A stretch of 64,000 bases of DNA from Octopus vulgaris (lineage: Eukaryota), in assembly GCA_951406725.2 (NCBI GenBank), contig OX597818.1, positions 37,882,001 through 37,946,000 on the forward strand, in the 5' to 3' direction. The position numbers are program-made. This document shows positions 1 through 57,000 of the stretch, in pieces. Position 1 is the stretch's first letter. Every line of letters starts with the position of its first letter.

Positions 1-3000
1 GATGATGAAGATGATTCAAAATTAAGAAAATAAATTCTGTTGTGTCTGGGGAAAGTCATTTTCTTTTTGTGCCTTATAATTTAACACATTCACCGGTAAA
101 ATTTCCATTTATTTCTTATTTTTATTTTCCTAAAATTTTCGTAAATTTTGTAAATTTTATTTTCCTAAAATTTTCAATAGTCAAGATTATTGAAAAGGTT
201 GCAAGATGCAACGAAAATTTTAGGAAAATAAAAATAAGAAATAAGTGGAAATTTTACCGGTGAGTGTGTTACATTATAAGGCACAAAAAGAAAATGACTC
301 TCCCCATGCACAACATAATATGCTTCAACACACGAACTCATATAAAGAATCTTGCAAACCAAATCCAAAAACGAAAATAAACAAAAAAAATAAAAACCTA
401 AAATAAAAGACAAAATTCAATATTCGCACTGACCTTTACGTCTAGTATTAGCTTTTGTTTGACTGTTAATAGATAATTTCGGATGAGTTCCTGAAGAAAT
501 CACAGATGGTATACTGCTCATAGTATTAACAACAGGAGACTGAGGTTTATACTTTGAACCTGAAACATTTGAATGAGGAGAAAATTGGTTAAGGAAAGCA
601 ATAAACATTTATAAATATTTTTATAATTAATTAACTGAATTGCCAAATATCCAAAATAGAAAATGCACCAAATTGTTAAAATTGAAAGGCAAACCTGAAA
701 GAAAGTTAAAGATTGCAATGATAAATATAGCAAACCAACTAGAAGAAAGTCCATTTTAATTCTTTGTTTGAGATGTCTAGGTATTGAATGTAAATGTTGT
801 TGCTTAAAGAATACAGTAGAGATTATGTATCAACTCACCTGGGAGATTAATTTATTTGTATTTATATCATATCTATCCAACATCTATGTTTATACGCAGT
901 TTACAGATACATAATCATTGAAAATTCCTCTATAATAATTGGTTAATAAATATTACTAATTAGTTATTTTTCATTCTTTTGTTTCTTGCAGGCATGGCCA
1001 TGTGGTATGATCTTTGCTTCCCAACCACATCTCAGGTTCAACCCCACTGCTTAGCACCTTGGGCAAGTATCTTCTATTATAGCCCCGGGCTGACCAATAC
1101 CTTGTGAGTGGATTTGGTAGACAGAAACTGAAAGAAGCTCATTTTGTATGTATATACACAGACACATGTACCATAGGCTTCTTTCTGTTTCCTTCTACCA
1201 AAACCACTCACAAAGTTTTGGTCAGCTTTGGCTATAGTGGAAGAAACTCGCCCAAAGTGCTACACGATGGGACTGAACCTGAAACCATGGGGCTTGGGAG
1301 CAAACGCCTAACTACACAACCACACCTGCACCTATATATATTTCTTATCACTTTGAGTTTTGCTGGCTCAAATGTCACCTTCCAGTCAATAACCTAAGCT
1401 TTTATCTTGGTTTAAACTGTTTACTGCAATTCACTGCATTTTGCAATTTACTGCATTTGGAATGTCAACAATGTCACATTTTAAACCCGAGAAACGTCTT
1501 GCCTAGTTTTACTGTCCCACTTATAGATTGTATTTGCAATGTTCGAATCAGTTGGTTGATTTCTTTTTCTGAAAATCTAAGCTTATTCAGACTGACAGTT
1601 AGGCATTTACTTACAAAACCAAGTGCTCCAATTATTATTAGTATAAATGTAAATTTGTAGTCAGGATATAAAAGCTGGAGGTTTTAAAGCAGTTGTCCAT
1701 AGTTATCTTCTCTCTGTTTGATTTTCAAAGAGATATTCACATTAGCAGGACAGCTGACCTCTATGATGGTACATATTTTTTCTTGTCTGTCCCAAACAAC
1801 AATATCTAACCTTGTCATGCTTACACTTAACAGATGTTTTGATGGGAATATTCCACCTGTATTCCTTGTGCTTGTATATGTGTATATATTCAATAACGGG
1901 GATTTTCTACATTTATTCCAGGACAGTCTTTTTTCCAAATGGCATTATATATTGTTTTTGTAACATCATGTCACATAGGGAGGTAGTACTTTGATGACAT
2001 TTTTGGGCAGCTGCTAATCACGTGTGTGTTATGTCTTCCACAGAAATATGACATAATGTACATTTATGATTACCTCTTAGAACTCCAAGGGCTTCACTTT
2101 TGTTAATTAGGTATTTAGTAGCAATCTCCTGTCCTTAGATTGCCTCTGAAGTGTGATGTGATGTAGCAGCCACAAGTCCAAGAGAGGCTTCACTTCATGT
2201 CAGTTTTACTATCTTTTTCAAGTCTATGAGAAACATACCTAAACATAGTCATTTTTTTTTTTGGCATACTGAGATTTTCACCTCCAGGTCTTATTTGGGG
2301 TATGCTAACCTGGCTGATTTGGGGTTGAATGGGAGATCATCAAGAAGAGAATACTTTCTGAGATATTGTTTTCTTCACTTCTTGGCACTAAGTTAATGTT
2401 TTTTATTTTTGCTGCTGTTGTTTAGCAAGTGCTGTCTGAGAGAGACTGTGACATTCAAAGGCTGTCTGCAATGATCTCAACCCCCTATTTACTTTATTTC
2501 TTCTTAGGTAAAGCCAGTCGATATCATTATTTTAGTGGAGATTTGCAGTTTATGTTAGAATCTTATGGGCTTTAATGTCTATGGAGTGGATTTCTTCTAC
2601 AGGTTAGTTGAGTATGGAATCAGCACTGGAACTGTAACTGCACTGTGGAATATTGTCCAGTCGTAAGAGGAGAGTACAGACTGCCATATTTTTCTTAGTC
2701 TGGTGTAATATTCTAGGGTCATTCTATCTTTATTCAATGGCCCAGTGGTTAGGGCAGTGGACTCGTGGTCAGAGCATCACAGTTTCGATTCCCAGACTGG
2801 GTGTTGTGTGTGTTTATTGAGTGAAAACACCTAAAACTCCACGAGGCTCCGGCAAGGGTTGGTGGCAACCCCAATTGTACTCTTTCACCCCAACTTTCTC
2901 TCACTCTTTCTTCCTGTTTCTTGAATATGATGTGCGTGTGTGTGTGTATGTATATGTAAGTGTGTGAGAGAAAGAAATAAAGTGTGTATGTGTGAGAGAG

Positions 3001-54000: not shown

Positions 54001-57000
54001 TAATTGTGAGTGTAAGAATTTGGTGGATTTTGGAAAGTGGGGTAAAGAAGAGGGCAATAAAAAGAACCAGGCAAAGAAGAAAGGGAAAAGGAGACAACAC
54101 ACACAAAACAACACCAACACCAAAACCTGAGGGAAGCACGGGGTGGGGGGTCAAAATAGCTAGCCTTCCTTAAACATTCATTTAAAACCCATCAATTGTG
54201 TATCTTAAGTTTCTGTACTAAATGTATAACTCAATTCAGAGGTCTTGTATTAAATACATTCTGTACAGTATCTAAGAAATAGATAAAAACTGGACAAAAG
54301 CAAAAAACTATTTAGAAAATGCTACTTTTGATTTCACAATAAATTACTATTCATTATATTGTAATAACTGACTTGTTAATGCAGTTTTTCATGTCACAGC
54401 TATGATGGTATATATCTACCTTTATTTTGTCTGAGATAGTTTAATATCTTTATTTTATCTCAGGAAGGTCGTTATGCCAATAAACACATACACACACTCA
54501 CACACACACACACTGGTTCGGTTTCACTTTTTTTATTCATCAGCTGGTTAAATGAAGAAATGAAATAGAACTAGTGTTTATTATTGGCATAATGACCCTC
54601 CCTAGATGCAACAAAATCCATTTCAACACACAAGTTCACATCAAGAATCTTACAAACCAAATGCAAAAACTTATGTTTACTTTCTTTTGAAATCACTTAC
54701 AAGGCAAGGTTTAATTTAAAATATAAATGATTAATTTTTATTGATGCAGGGTTTTTTTTTTTCTGTGTGTATTGTAAATTTTTTTTTCCTTGTCTGTTAT
54801 ATTTCAGTTATGCCGCCTAGAAAACGTAATCTGTCAATCAAACATAAATGTCAGCTTCATTTTGTTGAAAGCCCCAAAGAAATTCCACATGGGTTGTTAA
54901 CTCCTATTCCTTGCAGTAATTTCCAAGCAGCTGCCAGATTAACAGAAATAAAAGACAGCCCTTCATGGGTAAGTTGCTTTTTGTTGCATTTGCTTTACTG
55001 TAGGAGGAGCCTTAGGTTATCCTTCATTATCAGACCTAATTGATAGTTTATCTAGGAATACATTATCCAATGTATTCTTAAAGATCTCGGGGGTGTATTT
55101 TGAGGGAGATTTGGTTATGATGTTTGGTTGAGTATCTGCACAGACGTTTTCTTGGTTGATTGTCTACATAAGTTTATATGCCACAGCTGACACCAGAATC
55201 CTAACTCTTTTTGCACAGAGCCTTTTACTTTTAATCAGTATAAGATTGATTTTAAAGATATGTTAAGCCCCTTACTGTATATACTCTTTACTCTTTTACT
55301 TGTTTCAGACATTTGACTGTGGCCATGCTGGAGCACCGCCTTTAATCGAGCAACTCGACCCCGGGACTTATTCTGTGTAAGCCTAGTACTTATTCTATCG
55401 GTCTCTTTTGCCGAACCGCTAAGTGACGGGGACATAAACACACCAGCTTCGGTTGTGAAGCGATGTTGGGGGTACAAACACAAACACTCACACATATATA
55501 TATACATATATATATACATATATACGACAGGCTCCTTTCAGTTTCCGTCTACCAAATCCACTCACAAGGCTTTGGTCGGCCCGAGGCTATAGCAGAAGAC
55601 ACTTGCCCAAGGTGCCACGCAGTGGGACTGAACCCGGAACCATGTGGTTGGTAAGCAAGCTACATACCACACAGCCACTCCTGCGCCTATACTTATATAT
55701 TCCTAAATAATTTTCATTAGTCATTAATTACTTCACACTCTACTAATGCTGGTCTTAATGTGAAATAGATGTCAAAGTATACAGTTTTATATTTAAGAGA
55801 TGAGGAATTATGTACATTATTTACATTTGCCGGATATTTGTCCTCGTCTGATGTTGGCTGGAGGGTATATCAGCCGAAACATTGTGTTAACAACAAACAA
55901 AATGAGGGCAAATATCCGTCAAATGTAAATAATGTATGTTGCTTCTGTGGGCTATGTGGTAAGTAGCTTGCTTAACAACCTCATGGTTCTGGGTTTAGTC
56001 CCACTGCTTGGCATCTTGGGCAAGTGTCTTCTACTATAGCCTTGGGCCGGCCAAAGCCTTGTGGGTGGATTTGGTGGATGGAAACTCAAGGAGGCCCATC
56101 GTATATATATATATATATATATGTGTGTGTGTGTGTGTATATGTTTGTGCTTGTCCCCCTAGCATTGCTTGACAACCGATGCTGGTGTGTTTGTGTCCTC
56201 ATCACTTGACGGTTCGGCGGAAAAGACCAATAGAATAGGTACTGGGCTTACAAAGAATGGGTCCCGGGGTCTATTTGCTAGACTAAAGGCGGTGCTCCAG
56301 CATGGCCGCAGTCAAATGACTGAAACAAGTAAAAGTGTGAAAAAGAGTAAACCTTATATTTCCTTTGACTTTTTTTTACTTTCCCTTAACTCATTTTAAC
56401 AATATGTTCATTTATTTATGTAGGTGTCACCCCAATTCACTGACATTAAAGACCTACCAACCAAACAACAAAGAAAAAGAAACGCTAAAGCTAATGTTGA
56501 AAATGACTGTCCCAAAGAACACAACAAGAGATATGGTTCTCTGCAGTTTTTGAAACCAAGATCTCTTCACAAACCTTTTCAAGATTGCCAGTCATTATCA
56601 AACATAGAAAACATTGTGATTAGTCCAAAGTTTACAAATTCTGAAGACTCATTGAAACCAACATGTCCTTGGAACCTCTTTCAAAATTCTCCTTTGGAAC
56701 AAAAAGACTTTGGCAAAATACTAGTTCCTGATACACCTGAAAGGGAATATGGCTTATCAGTGCGGCACAAACAGTTGAGGAAAATCAAAAAATAATTGAG
56801 TTTTATATGTTGGGTCTTTTATTTATGTGTTATTTATTGCAATAAAGCATTTTATTTATTTAACCTTTCTTTATTTCATGAATATCATGATCAAAAACTT
56901 TCTTTCATTTTATTCCATGATACTTCCATTTCACTTCTTAACTCATGTTTGTTTACCTATTTCTCTGCTACACTCAGCATTATCATTATTGTTTCCCTAT

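What the first reader, a model, noticed from the sequence alone, without database searches (positions are those of the whole stretch)
434..56795. FoxM1 and RHNO1 are head-to-head in a mollusc: possible deep conservation of the human bidirectional gene pair
Seen: a FoxM1-like gene on minus and an RHNO1-like gene on plus diverge, with no other recognisable host gene between them. Both start-codon exons are preceded by splice acceptors, so their 5' ends lie in the intervening DNA. Established: human FOXM1 and RHNO1 are adjacent head-to-head genes co-regulated from a bidirectional promoter, coupling G2/M transcription to 9-1-1/ATR checkpoint signalling and mitotic Pol theta repair. Inference: the linkage may predate the protostome-deuterostome split and has survived the heavy rearrangement of coleoid genomes.
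Basis: partly seen in the sequence, partly recalled or inferred. Interest (0 to 1): 0.85.

Follow-up and report, generated by a model that had tools for sequence, protein, structure and literature searches.

The report
Octopus FoxM and RHINO genes back-to-back
In an octopus the gene for the cell-division regulator FoxM and the gene for the DNA-damage adaptor RHINO sit next to each other pointing away from one another, as they do in humans, which suggests a very old pairing, although only this one invertebrate could be examined.

Summary
On the minus strand lie five coding exons (8597 down to 434) that match, exon by exon and letter for letter, residues 1-455 of a public 794-aa Octopus vulgaris protein named forkhead box protein M1. 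On the plus strand two exons (54810-54968, 56424-56795) give the whole of a public 176-aa 'uncharacterized' octopus protein that passes Pfam's RHINO threshold. It keeps the described 9-1-1 and TOPBP1 contact motifs. The genes diverge. Their start codons are 46,213 bases apart, and both start-codon exons follow a pyrimidine tract and AG. Between them I found only retroelement debris and no other Pfam-recognisable gene. FoxM class membership is probable, not proven: it rests on the forkhead domain alone, and no tree was possible. I add one thing: a single 5-kb block at 30.2-35.2 kb that is not CpG-depleted (o/e 0.99 against 0.25), midway between the genes. It is a candidate shared promoter; this is not shown. 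Deep conservation is an inference from octopus and vertebrates; no other animal genome could be searched here. I found no paper reporting the pair outside vertebrates. Verdict: a new member of a known kind, the conserved divergent gene pair.

The parts
7817..8691 (-). foxM start-codon exon. The putative acceptor AG is at 8693-8692, the ATG at 8597-8595, and the donor GT at 7816-7815. It encodes residues 1-260 plus the first base of codon 261.
   Evidence: DNA read. The translation is an exact substring of P0001 residues 1-260. No Pfam match.
6755..6801 (-). foxM 47-nt mini-exon (residues 262-276). It restores the frame between the first exon and the forkhead exon.
   Evidence: AG and GT flank it.
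5640..5807 (-). foxM forkhead exon A (residues 277-332; Pfam Forkhead profile positions 1-50).
   Evidence: Pfam: E 1.6e-16. PDB: FOXM1 is best at 57.6 bits, against 43.1 for FOXK1. Exact match to P0001.
3137..3380 (-). foxM forkhead exon B (residues 333-413): the recognition helix and a short wing, followed by a serine-rich tract.
   Evidence: Pfam Forkhead positions 49-85, 21.8 bits. The best PDB match is FOXG1 at 23.6 bits, and no FOXM1 chain is among the 20 matches. Exact match to P0001.
434..559 (-). Last foxM exon inside the window (residues 415-455). The gene continues beyond the left edge.
   Evidence: No Pfam match.
54808..54968 (+). RHNO1-like start-codon exon. AG is at 54806-54807, the ATG at 54810, and the donor GT at 54969. 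It encodes residues 1-53, including K13, L16 and F18, and ends in the W of the WVSPQF motif.
   Evidence: Pfam RHINO profile positions 1-26, 15.2 bits, E 0.023.
56424..56795 (+). RHNO1-like last coding exon (residues 54-176 plus the stop). It carries VSPQF, Y90/L93/F95 and ILVPDTPE (152-159). AATAAA follows at 56841-56846.
   Evidence: Pfam RHINO 33.9 bits against a cut-off of 25. Exact match to P0003.
30200..35200 (.). The only block in the window that is not CpG-depleted. It is a candidate unmethylated promoter region midway between the two genes.
   Evidence: Its non-repeated DNA has CpG o/e 0.99 (120 CpG in 4,150 nt), against 0.25 elsewhere (290 in 37,074 nt). The top 7 of 79 sliding 2.6-kb windows all start between 29.2 and 33.2 kb. 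It is unique within the window apart from one SINE-like insert and a local inverted repeat.
31781..31834 (-). A cluster, read on the foxM strand, of an E2F-like TTCGCGCG, an inverted CCAAT box, and tandem TTCGAA/TTCAAA that resemble CHR elements. The element names are recalled. A GTAAGT donor lies about 160 nt downstream at 31622.
   Evidence: The composite pattern occurs at this one site against 0.01 expected, but I wrote the pattern after seeing the site. CCAAT plus CHR alone is not enriched (7 found, 4.4 expected). Function is not shown.
33500..33505 (+). The only GTRAGT donor on the plus strand within 31-35 kb. It is a candidate end of a non-coding first exon of the RHNO1-like gene.
   Evidence: Inference only.
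52062..53369 (-). Open segment of 436 codons with a reverse-transcriptase domain (LINE-type retroelement), lying 1.4 kb from the RHNO1-like start-codon exon. It is not a host gene.
   Evidence: Pfam RVT_1, E 1e-36. Related fragments lie at 49361-49657 (+) and 7163-7288 (-).

Best explanation
The window is the Octopus vulgaris locus that holds the orthologues of vertebrate FOXM1 and RHNO1 (RHINO) as immediate neighbours transcribed away from each other.

Shown:
- The identity of both genes at domain and family level.
- Their exon structures, their orientation, and the 46.2 kb between their start codons.
- The absence of any other Pfam-recognisable gene in that interval, which is retroelement- and SINE-rich.

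Inferred:
- The adjacency is inherited from the common ancestor of molluscs and vertebrates rather than assembled twice. A specified gene is the immediate neighbour of another by chance at roughly 2 divided by the gene number, which is on the order of 1e-4. This is my estimate, not a tool result.
- Both genes begin with non-coding first exons inside the single CpG-undepleted block at 30.2-35.2 kb. Candidate donors are at 31622 on the minus strand and 33500 on the plus strand. Each would then splice over about 21-23 kb to its start-codon exon.
- One divergent, cell-cycle-type promoter region would thereby switch on the G2/M transcription factor together with the adaptor that links the 9-1-1 clamp to TOPBP1, as described for the human pair.

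The octopus RHINO keeps the residues described as RAD9, RAD1 and TOPBP1 contacts in the human protein, so the same adaptor mechanism is likely.
For: Gene identity of foxM:
- Every exon translation is an exact substring of P0001, 'forkhead box protein M1 isoform X1 [Octopus vulgaris]', or of P0003, XP_029637160.1.
- Forkhead exon A scores 57.6 bits to FOXM1, against 43.1 for the next class.
- The public whole protein scores 79.0 to FOXM1, against 69.0 for FOXG1, 62.4 for FOXL2 and 61.0 for FOXK2.
- A search on the forkhead region returned 8 proteins from 19 candidates: 2 cephalopod, 1 unnamed nemertean and 5 vertebrate, all 5 named FOXM1.
- The nemertean protein is a clear FoxM (98.2 bits to FOXM1, 65.5 to FOXG1). 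It is 66% identical to the octopus protein over 65 forkhead residues.
- The nearest named Atlas cluster is 'forkhead box protein M1' (score 0.91).

Gene identity of RHINO:
- Pfam scores are 33.9 bits for exon 2 and 58.5 bits for P0003, against a cut-off of 25.
- A search of 1.84 billion representatives gave 20 hits. Of the 19 non-self hits, 16 match RHINO and 15 reach the cut-off.
- In the 17-sequence alignment L16, F18, WVSPQF, L93, F95, L153, T157 and P158 are invariant.
- These coincide with human sites described in papers: K13, L16 and F18 (PMC12907562); the RAD1-binding 56-61 motif and the RAD9-binding 88-99 region (PMC10937111); and the pT202 TOPBP1 motif with a hydrophobic triplet at -5 to -3 (PMC6175577).

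Adjacency: Pfam on 264 plus 125 segments, Rfam and a tRNA scan.

Promoter block.

Human pair: it shares a CpG-island bidirectional promoter with E2F sites that is conserved in vertebrates (PMC8104967, passages).
Against: - Forkhead exon B alone ranks FOXG1, FOXD3 and FOXL2 first, and no FOXM1 chain is among its 20 matches at E up to 1.
- The margin for FOXM1 on the whole domain is only 10 bits.
- Outside the forkhead domain nothing significant links the octopus protein to vertebrate FOXM1. The best BLASTP E is 0.04, phmmer finds nothing, and hhalign gives P 0.038 and 0.63.
- No tree with all Fox classes could be built.
- The start codons are 46 kb apart, against the 1-kb distance between transcription starts used to define head-to-head pairs (PMC7817982, abstract in the listing).
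- The first exons and transcription starts are guesses.
- I chose the composite promoter pattern after seeing the site, and CCAAT plus CHR alone is not enriched.
- Short, fast-evolving or non-coding genes in the interval would escape a Pfam screen.
- Only one invertebrate lineage was examined. One paper reports foxM as lost in the oyster (PMC9539403), so the pair cannot be universal in molluscs.
Confidence: 0.62

Rival explanations
1. The linkage is ancestral, but in the octopus the two genes are driven by separate promoters that lie far apart. The CpG-rich block would then be something else, such as an enhancer, the promoter of one gene only, or the promoter of an unannotated transcript. The pair would be retained by regulatory entanglement or by chance lack of breakage, not by a shared promoter.
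For: The coding starts are 46,213 bases apart. No transcript data were available. The candidate first exons rest on two consensus donors. CCAAT plus CHR alone is not enriched. The block holds a SINE-like insert and a 95-nt inverted repeat, which could be mobile DNA rather than promoter.
Against: Both start-codon exons begin right after strong pyrimidine tracts and AG, so further upstream exons are expected. The block is the only CpG-undepleted unique DNA in 64 kb and lies midway between the genes. There is no such signal just upstream of either start-codon exon.
Confidence: 0.25
2. The adjacency is not homologous to the human one. Either the forkhead gene is a divergent member of another Fox class, or the two genes came to lie together independently in cephalopods.
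For: Forkhead exon B alone does not favour FOXM1. There is no significant similarity outside the domain. The cephalopod domain is unusual, with D for N after the RH of the recognition helix and a shortened wing. Only one invertebrate lineage was seen.
Against: FOXM1 is the best match for exon A and for the whole domain. All 5 named hits outside cephalopods are FOXM1. There is a bridge through a clear nemertean FoxM. Chance adjacency of two specified genes is on the order of 1e-4 (my estimate).
Confidence: 0.1
3. The two genes are not immediate neighbours, because an unrecognised gene lies in the 46-kb interval. It could be non-coding, lineage-specific, or made of short exons.
For: The screen covered only open segments of 50 aa or more, and only Pfam, Rfam and tRNA models. 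About 24 kb of the interval is unique within the window.
Against: Nothing above a curated cut-off was found in the interval except a reverse transcriptase. 35.5% of the interval is repeated within the window itself, and LINE and SINE-like fragments are scattered through it. Outside the one block, its CpG depletion equals that of the flanking gene bodies.
Confidence: 0.15

Closest known systems
Human FOXM1/RHNO1 bidirectional gene pair (F/R-BDP; PMC8104967, passages read)
   Same: The same two gene families, immediate neighbours, in divergent orientation. A CpG-rich block with E2F-like sites lies between them. The RHINO partner keeps the 9-1-1 and TOPBP1 contact motifs.
   Different: In the octopus the start codons are 46 kb apart and the interval is full of retroelements. 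The transcription starts, a shared promoter and co-expression are not shown. The octopus RHINO is shorter (176 aa). The octopus FoxM shows no significant similarity to FOXM1 outside the forkhead domain.
Conserved ancestral microsyntenic pairs of metazoans (PMC3514665, passages read), for example HSPE1-HSPD1
   Same: A gene pair in 5'-5' orientation kept in distant animal phyla. That paper finds such pairs enriched for divergent orientation and co-expression.
   Different: FOXM, C12orf32 and RHNO1 do not occur in that paper's main text (0 occurrences). Its list of pairs is in supplements that were closed, so I cannot say whether the pair is already listed. Here the conservation rests on two lineages.
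RHINO family, Pfam PF15319
   Same: The match is above the curated cut-off. It has the N-terminal basic start, L16/F18, WVSPQF, the [FY]xxLxF region and the DTPE motif.
   Different: RHINO is described in the literature as a protein 'found in vertebrates' (PMC10937111). The mollusc protein lacks most of the variable middle part (176 aa, against 215-446 aa in the other aligned hits).
FoxM class of forkhead genes in Spiralia (PMC9539403, passages read)
   Same: A forkhead domain closest to FoxM. FoxM is already known from annelids and is implied for molluscs other than the oyster.
   Different: The cephalopod domain is divergent in the recognition helix and the wing, and a serine-rich tract follows it.

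Membership tests
RHINO (PF15319) | Match to the family profile above the curated cut-off | tested here: met
   Exon 2 alone scores 33.9 bits and the public protein P0003 58.5 bits, against a cut-off of 25. Exon 1 alone scores 15.2 bits, below the cut-off. Reverse view: 16 of the 19 non-self relatives match RHINO.
RHINO (PF15319) | RAD1-binding motif (human 56-61, WVSPDF; PMC10937111) | tested here: met
   WVSPQF lies at residues 53-58 and is invariant in 17 of 17 aligned sequences. An intron splits it between W and V.
RHINO (PF15319) | RAD9-contact residues (human K13, L16 and F18, PMC12907562; human region 88-99, PMC10937111) | tested here: met
   K13, L16 and F18 are present at the same numbers. 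Y90, L93 and F95 are present. L16, F18, L93 and F95 are invariant in the alignment.
RHINO (PF15319) | TOPBP1 BRCT1-binding TP site with a hydrophobic triplet at -5 to -3 (human pT202; PMC6175577) | tested here: met
   ILVPDTPE lies at 152-159, with T157-P158 invariant. Phosphorylation and binding were not tested.
RHINO (PF15319) | Physical binding to 9-1-1 and TOPBP1 | not testable with these tools
   No RHINO chain came back from the solved-structure searches with P0003 or with the alignment.
FoxM class | Forkhead domain present | tested here: met
   Pfam: 60.6 bits for exon A and 21.8 bits for exon B. P0001 scores 92.7 bits.
FoxM class | Forkhead domain groups with FoxM rather than other classes | tested here: inconclusive
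   For: FOXM1 is the best solved structure. 5 of 5 named hits outside cephalopods are FOXM1. There is a nemertean bridge. Against: exon B alone prefers FOXG1, FOXD3 and FOXL2. No tree could be built because no sequences of other classes could be fetched.
FoxM class | Similarity to FOXM1 outside the domain (N-terminal and C-terminal regulatory regions) | tested here: not met
   The best BLASTP E is 0.04, and hhalign gives P 0.038 and 0.63. Only short collinear motifs are seen in the alignment. Most of this region lies outside the window.
Bidirectional (head-to-head) gene pair | Divergent orientation with no gene between | tested here: met
   This holds within the limits of a Pfam, Rfam and tRNA screen.
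Bidirectional (head-to-head) gene pair | Transcription starts within about 1 kb (PMC7817982) and a shared promoter | not testable with these tools
   The start codons are 46,213 nt apart. The candidate first-exon donors are 1.9 kb apart, at 31622 and 33500, with a 450-nt SINE-like insert between them. No transcript data were available.
Conserved ancestral microsyntenic pair | The same pair adjacent in several distant phyla | not testable with these tools
   Only octopus (this window) and vertebrates (literature) are covered. The genome collection on hand holds bacteria and archaea only, so I did not use it.

The most novel reading that the evidence does not exclude
FoxM and RHINO form an urbilaterian regulatory unit. 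A divergent pair would be driven from one unmethylated cell-cycle promoter and kept together for more than half a billion years, even through the scrambling of the coleoid genome. The reason would be that entry into mitosis and the 9-1-1/TOPBP1 (and Pol theta) repair adaptor must be switched on together. RHINO, described as a vertebrate protein, would then be an ancient bilaterian checkpoint component with all its contact motifs already in place.
Probability: 0.4. Interest if true: 0.7.

Novelty: new member of a known kind. Interest (0 to 1): 0.5.

Why it matters
If the pairing is ancestral, the human FOXM1/RHNO1 bidirectional unit is not a vertebrate accident. It has been studied so far in cancer and was reported as conserved in vertebrates. 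It would instead be an old coupling of G2/M transcription with checkpoint and mitotic-repair signalling. That strengthens the case that the two genes work together in normal cells.

It also extends RHINO, with its RAD1, RAD9 and TOPBP1 contact motifs, to a mollusc. This gives comparative leverage on which residues matter.

The CpG-undepleted block offers a concrete, testable place to look for the shared promoter in an animal whose introns have grown to tens of kilobases.

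Tried and rejected
- Solved structures for RHINO: neither P0003 nor the 17-sequence profile returned a RHINO chain. There was 1 unrelated weak hit and then 0 hits. I had the human 9-1-1/RHINO complexes in mind, and they did not come back.
- Similarity of the octopus FoxM to vertebrate FOXM1 outside the forkhead domain: not significant.
Their taxa stay unknown, so I cannot say how many are invertebrate.
- A Fox tree with all classes: not possible, because the capped searches returned only FoxM-like proteins and solved-structure chains cannot be fetched.
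- Other animal genomes for microsynteny: no tool holds them. The genome collection is bacterial and archaeal, and I did not spend its scan.
- Non-coding genes in the window: Rfam 0 matches and tRNA scan 0 genes.
- CCAAT plus CHR as a promoter signal: 7 matches against 4.4 expected, not enriched. The triple pattern is unique, but I chose it after the fact.
- CpG-rich windows outside 30-35 kb: all are at least 48% covered by within-window repeats, so I read them as younger repeat copies.
- Literature on the pair outside vertebrates: 3 papers, none relevant; 0 papers; 1 paper, a bat genome; 3 papers, none on this. Two papers asked for by id were not held.
- Supplements of PMC3514665 and PMC6175577 may bear on whether the pair, or invertebrate RHINO, is already listed. 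They were closed.
The spliced models were searched exon by exon. Whole-protein comparisons used the public proteins that those exon searches returned.

Full report
**What is in the window.** The window is 64,000 bases with no N and is AT-rich, with GC 0.32-0.43. I translated all six frames and took every stop-to-stop segment of at least 50 aa. There were 438 such segments, 264 of them at least 60 aa long. I screened all 264 against Pfam.

Three families passed their curated cut-offs:
- Forkhead, on the minus strand at 5586-5807. A second, sub-threshold piece lies at 2904-3380.
- RHINO, on the plus strand at 56424-56792.
- A reverse transcriptase, on the minus strand at 52062-53369.

Four further matches were weak and below their cut-offs (RE_NgoFVII, ASFV_J13L, COX2_TM, Mif2_N).

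**Exon models.** I searched the models exon by exon and never joined the predicted exons. From the DNA the forkhead gene has five coding exons in the window:
- 8597-7817, with a pyrimidine tract and AG just upstream at 8693-8692;
- 6801-6755;
- 5807-5640;
- 3380-3137;
- 559-434.

The small gene has two coding exons. The first is 54810-54968, with AG at 54806-54807 two bases before the ATG. The second is 56424-56795, followed by AATAAA at 56841.

A search with forkhead exon A alone returned a 794-aa public protein named 'forkhead box protein M1 isoform X1 [Octopus vulgaris]' (P0001). It also returned an Argonauta relative (2 hits from 5 candidates). A search with the second exon of the small gene returned XP_029637160.1, 'uncharacterized protein LOC115212406 [Octopus vulgaris]' (P0003, 176 aa). 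It also returned an Octopus bimaculoides relative (2 hits from 3 candidates).

Each exon, translated on its own, is an exact substring of these proteins. For P0001 the exons cover residues 1-260, 262-276, 277-332, 333-413 and 415-455. For P0003 they cover 1-53 and 54-176. The window is Octopus vulgaris or something indistinguishable from it. The last 339 residues of the forkhead protein lie beyond the left edge.

**Is the forkhead gene FoxM?**

Evidence for:
- Exon A alone scores best against the three FOXM1 chains in the Protein Data Bank (57.3-57.6 bits). The next class, FOXK1, scores 43.1 (42 sequences at E up to 1e-3).
- The public whole protein scores 79.0 to FOXM1, 69.0 to FOXG1, 62.4 to FOXL2 and 61.0 to FOXK2 (46 sequences).
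- A search restricted to the forkhead region gave 8 proteins from 19 candidates: the two cephalopods, one unnamed nemertean protein, and five vertebrate proteins all named FOXM1.
- The nemertean protein is itself an unambiguous FoxM (98.2 bits to FOXM1, 65.5 to FOXG1). It is 66% identical to the octopus protein over 65 residues of the domain.
- The nearest named Atlas cluster is 'forkhead box protein M1' (score 0.91; this is only a lead).

Evidence against:
- Exon B alone ranks FOXG1 (23.6 bits), FOXD3 and FOXL2 first. No FOXM1 chain is among its 20 matches at E up to 1.
- The cephalopod domain has an aspartate where all six other aligned sequences have asparagine after the RH of the recognition helix. 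It also has a shortened wing.
- Outside the domain nothing is significant. The best BLASTP E is 0.04, phmmer finds nothing, and hhalign gives P 0.038 and 0.63.

I could not build a tree with other Fox classes. FoxM is already known in Spiralia: it is present in annelids and is reported as lost in the oyster (PMC9539403, passages). I rate FoxM membership as probable.

**Is the small gene RHNO1?** Exon 2 alone passes Pfam's RHINO cut-off (33.9 bits against 25). Exon 1 alone matches the first 26 profile positions weakly (15.2 bits, E 0.023). The public protein scores 58.5 bits.

A full HMMER pass over 1.84 billion representatives found 20 proteins at E up to 1e-3. Of the 19 non-self hits:
- 16 match RHINO at E up to 0.01, and 15 of those are above the cut-off;
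- 3 are low-complexity chance hits with other domains.

In an alignment of 17 RHINO-positive sequences, L16, F18, E20, P22, P32, W53-F58 (WVSPQF), R72, L93, F95, L153, T157 and P158 are invariant. These map onto the sites described for the human protein:
- K13, L16 and F18 towards RAD9 (PMC12907562);
- the RAD1-binding WVSPDF at 56-61 and the RAD9-binding stretch 88-99 (PMC10937111);
- the TOPBP1 BRCT1-binding pT202 site, with a hydrophobic triplet at -5 to -3 (PMC6175577). The octopus has ILVPDTPE at 152-159.

The nearest Atlas clusters are chordate RHINO clusters (0.91). No RHINO chain came back from the solved-structure searches. PMC10937111 describes RHINO as 'found in vertebrates', while PMC6175577 speaks of homologues 'in metazoa'. 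The taxa of the other relatives could not be looked up.

**The interval.** The start codons are 46,213 bases apart. Of the interval, 35.5% is repeated within the window itself. It contains:
- a roughly 400-nt SINE-like family, with 22 further matches of at least 100 nt across the window;
- a LINE-type reverse-transcriptase open segment, plus two related fragments;
- simple repeats.

The 125 open segments of 50-59 aa in the interval gave no Pfam match at E up to 1e-3. Rfam and the tRNA scan found nothing. Within the reach of these screens the two genes are immediate neighbours. A non-coding or lineage-specific transcript cannot be excluded.

**A candidate promoter block (my addition).** The window is strongly CpG-depleted, with a mean o/e of 0.37. 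One block stands out. The non-repeated DNA of 30.2-35.2 kb has o/e 0.99 (120 CpG in 4,150 nt), against 0.25 for non-repeated DNA elsewhere (290 in 37,074 nt). The top 7 of 79 sliding 2.6-kb windows all start between 29.2 and 33.2 kb. The other CpG-rich 400-nt windows are all at least 48% covered by within-window repeats.

The block lies about 22-23 kb from each start-codon exon. At 31781-31834, read on the forkhead strand, sit an E2F-like TTCGCGCG, an inverted CCAAT box and tandem CHR-like hexamers. The element names are recalled. A GTAAGT donor lies about 160 nt downstream at 31622. On the plus strand the only GTRAGT donor within 31-35 kb is at 33500.

The composite pattern occurs only at this site (0.01 expected). 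I wrote the pattern after seeing the site, so this number overstates the case. CCAAT plus CHR alone is not enriched (7 found, 4.4 expected).

The human pair's shared promoter is a CpG island with E2F sites (PMC8104967). RHNO1 also appears in a gene table of a review on p53-DREAM targets (PMC5729532; one passage seen and the table heading not read).

My reading is that both genes start with non-coding exons in this block and splice across long first introns. This is inference. No transcript data were available.

**How it probably works.**
- Shown: gene identities at family level, exon structure, orientation and adjacency.
- Inferred from the human literature: FoxM drives G2/M genes. RHINO bridges the 9-1-1 clamp and TOPBP1 for ATR signalling and, in mitosis, Pol theta-mediated end joining (PMC12426944, passages). 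A common promoter would make both available in dividing cells.
- Inferred from probability: two specified genes being immediate neighbours by chance is on the order of 1e-4 for a genome of a few tens of thousands of genes. This is my estimate. Shared ancestry of the arrangement is therefore the simplest account, provided the orthology holds.

**Comparison and novelty.** The arrangement matches the human FOXM1/RHNO1 pair in gene content and orientation. It differs in scale (46 kb between coding starts) and in lacking any evidence on transcription starts. As a phenomenon it belongs with the conserved ancestral microsyntenic pairs of metazoans, which are enriched for 5'-5' orientation (PMC3514665). 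That paper's main text does not mention these genes, and its supplementary list was closed.

Both genes are already in public annotation, one named FoxM1 and the other 'uncharacterized' but carrying the RHINO domain. I found no paper that reports the pair outside vertebrates.

I therefore file it as a new member of a known kind, with moderate interest. The conclusion is well founded for the octopus locus. Deep conservation is suggestive but untested.

Noticed in passing
window 31905-32355, with 22 further matches including 7401-7794, 16394-16813, 55294-55714 and 55950-56334: A SINE-like family of about 400 nt, 63-92% identical to the copy at 31905-32355. It is scattered over the whole window, including the foxM intron, both orientations inside the RHNO1-like intron, and the CpG-rich block. 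Its open frames produce the recurring 'FQSFDCGHAGAPPL'-type false ORFs.
   Followed up: partly
window 52062-53369 (-), 49361-49657 (+), 7163-7288 (-): A LINE-type retroelement with an open segment of 436 codons carrying RVT_1 (E 1e-36). Two related fragments lie elsewhere (37% identity over 86 aa and 75% over 36 aa). I did not examine the integrity of the element beyond the open segment.
   Followed up: partly
window 33273-33367 and 33602-33695: An inverted repeat with arms of about 95 nt (90-98% complementary) around a 234-nt spacer. The spacer holds a GT microsatellite and the candidate plus-strand donor. It may be a small foldback element or a palindromic promoter feature; I cannot say which.
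   Followed up: no
window 45200-46350: A pyrimidine-rich low-complexity tract on the plus strand (GC skew -0.415, no CpG). It gives spurious ORFs of up to 362 aa in several frames, and none has a Pfam match.
   Followed up: no
window 3137-3380 (-): The cephalopod FoxM forkhead domain has aspartate where the six other aligned FoxM proteins have asparagine after the RH of the recognition helix. It also has a wing several residues shorter and a long serine-rich tract right after the domain. Octopus and Argonauta share all three features.
   Followed up: partly
window 5811-6092 (-): A tract of about 280 nt of imperfect ATT/TAA triplet repeats ends directly at the acceptor of forkhead exon A.
   Followed up: no
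window 54966-54968 / 56424-56438 (+): The single coding intron of the RHNO1-like gene (1,455 nt) falls inside the RAD1-binding motif, between its W and V. Whether vertebrate RHNO1 has an intron at the same place would be an extra test of orthology. I could not check it.
   Followed up: no
P0003 compared with P0005-P0022: The octopod RHINO proteins are the shortest in the alignment (176-177 aa, against 215-446 aa). They lack nearly all of the variable middle region but keep every conserved motif.
   Followed up: partly
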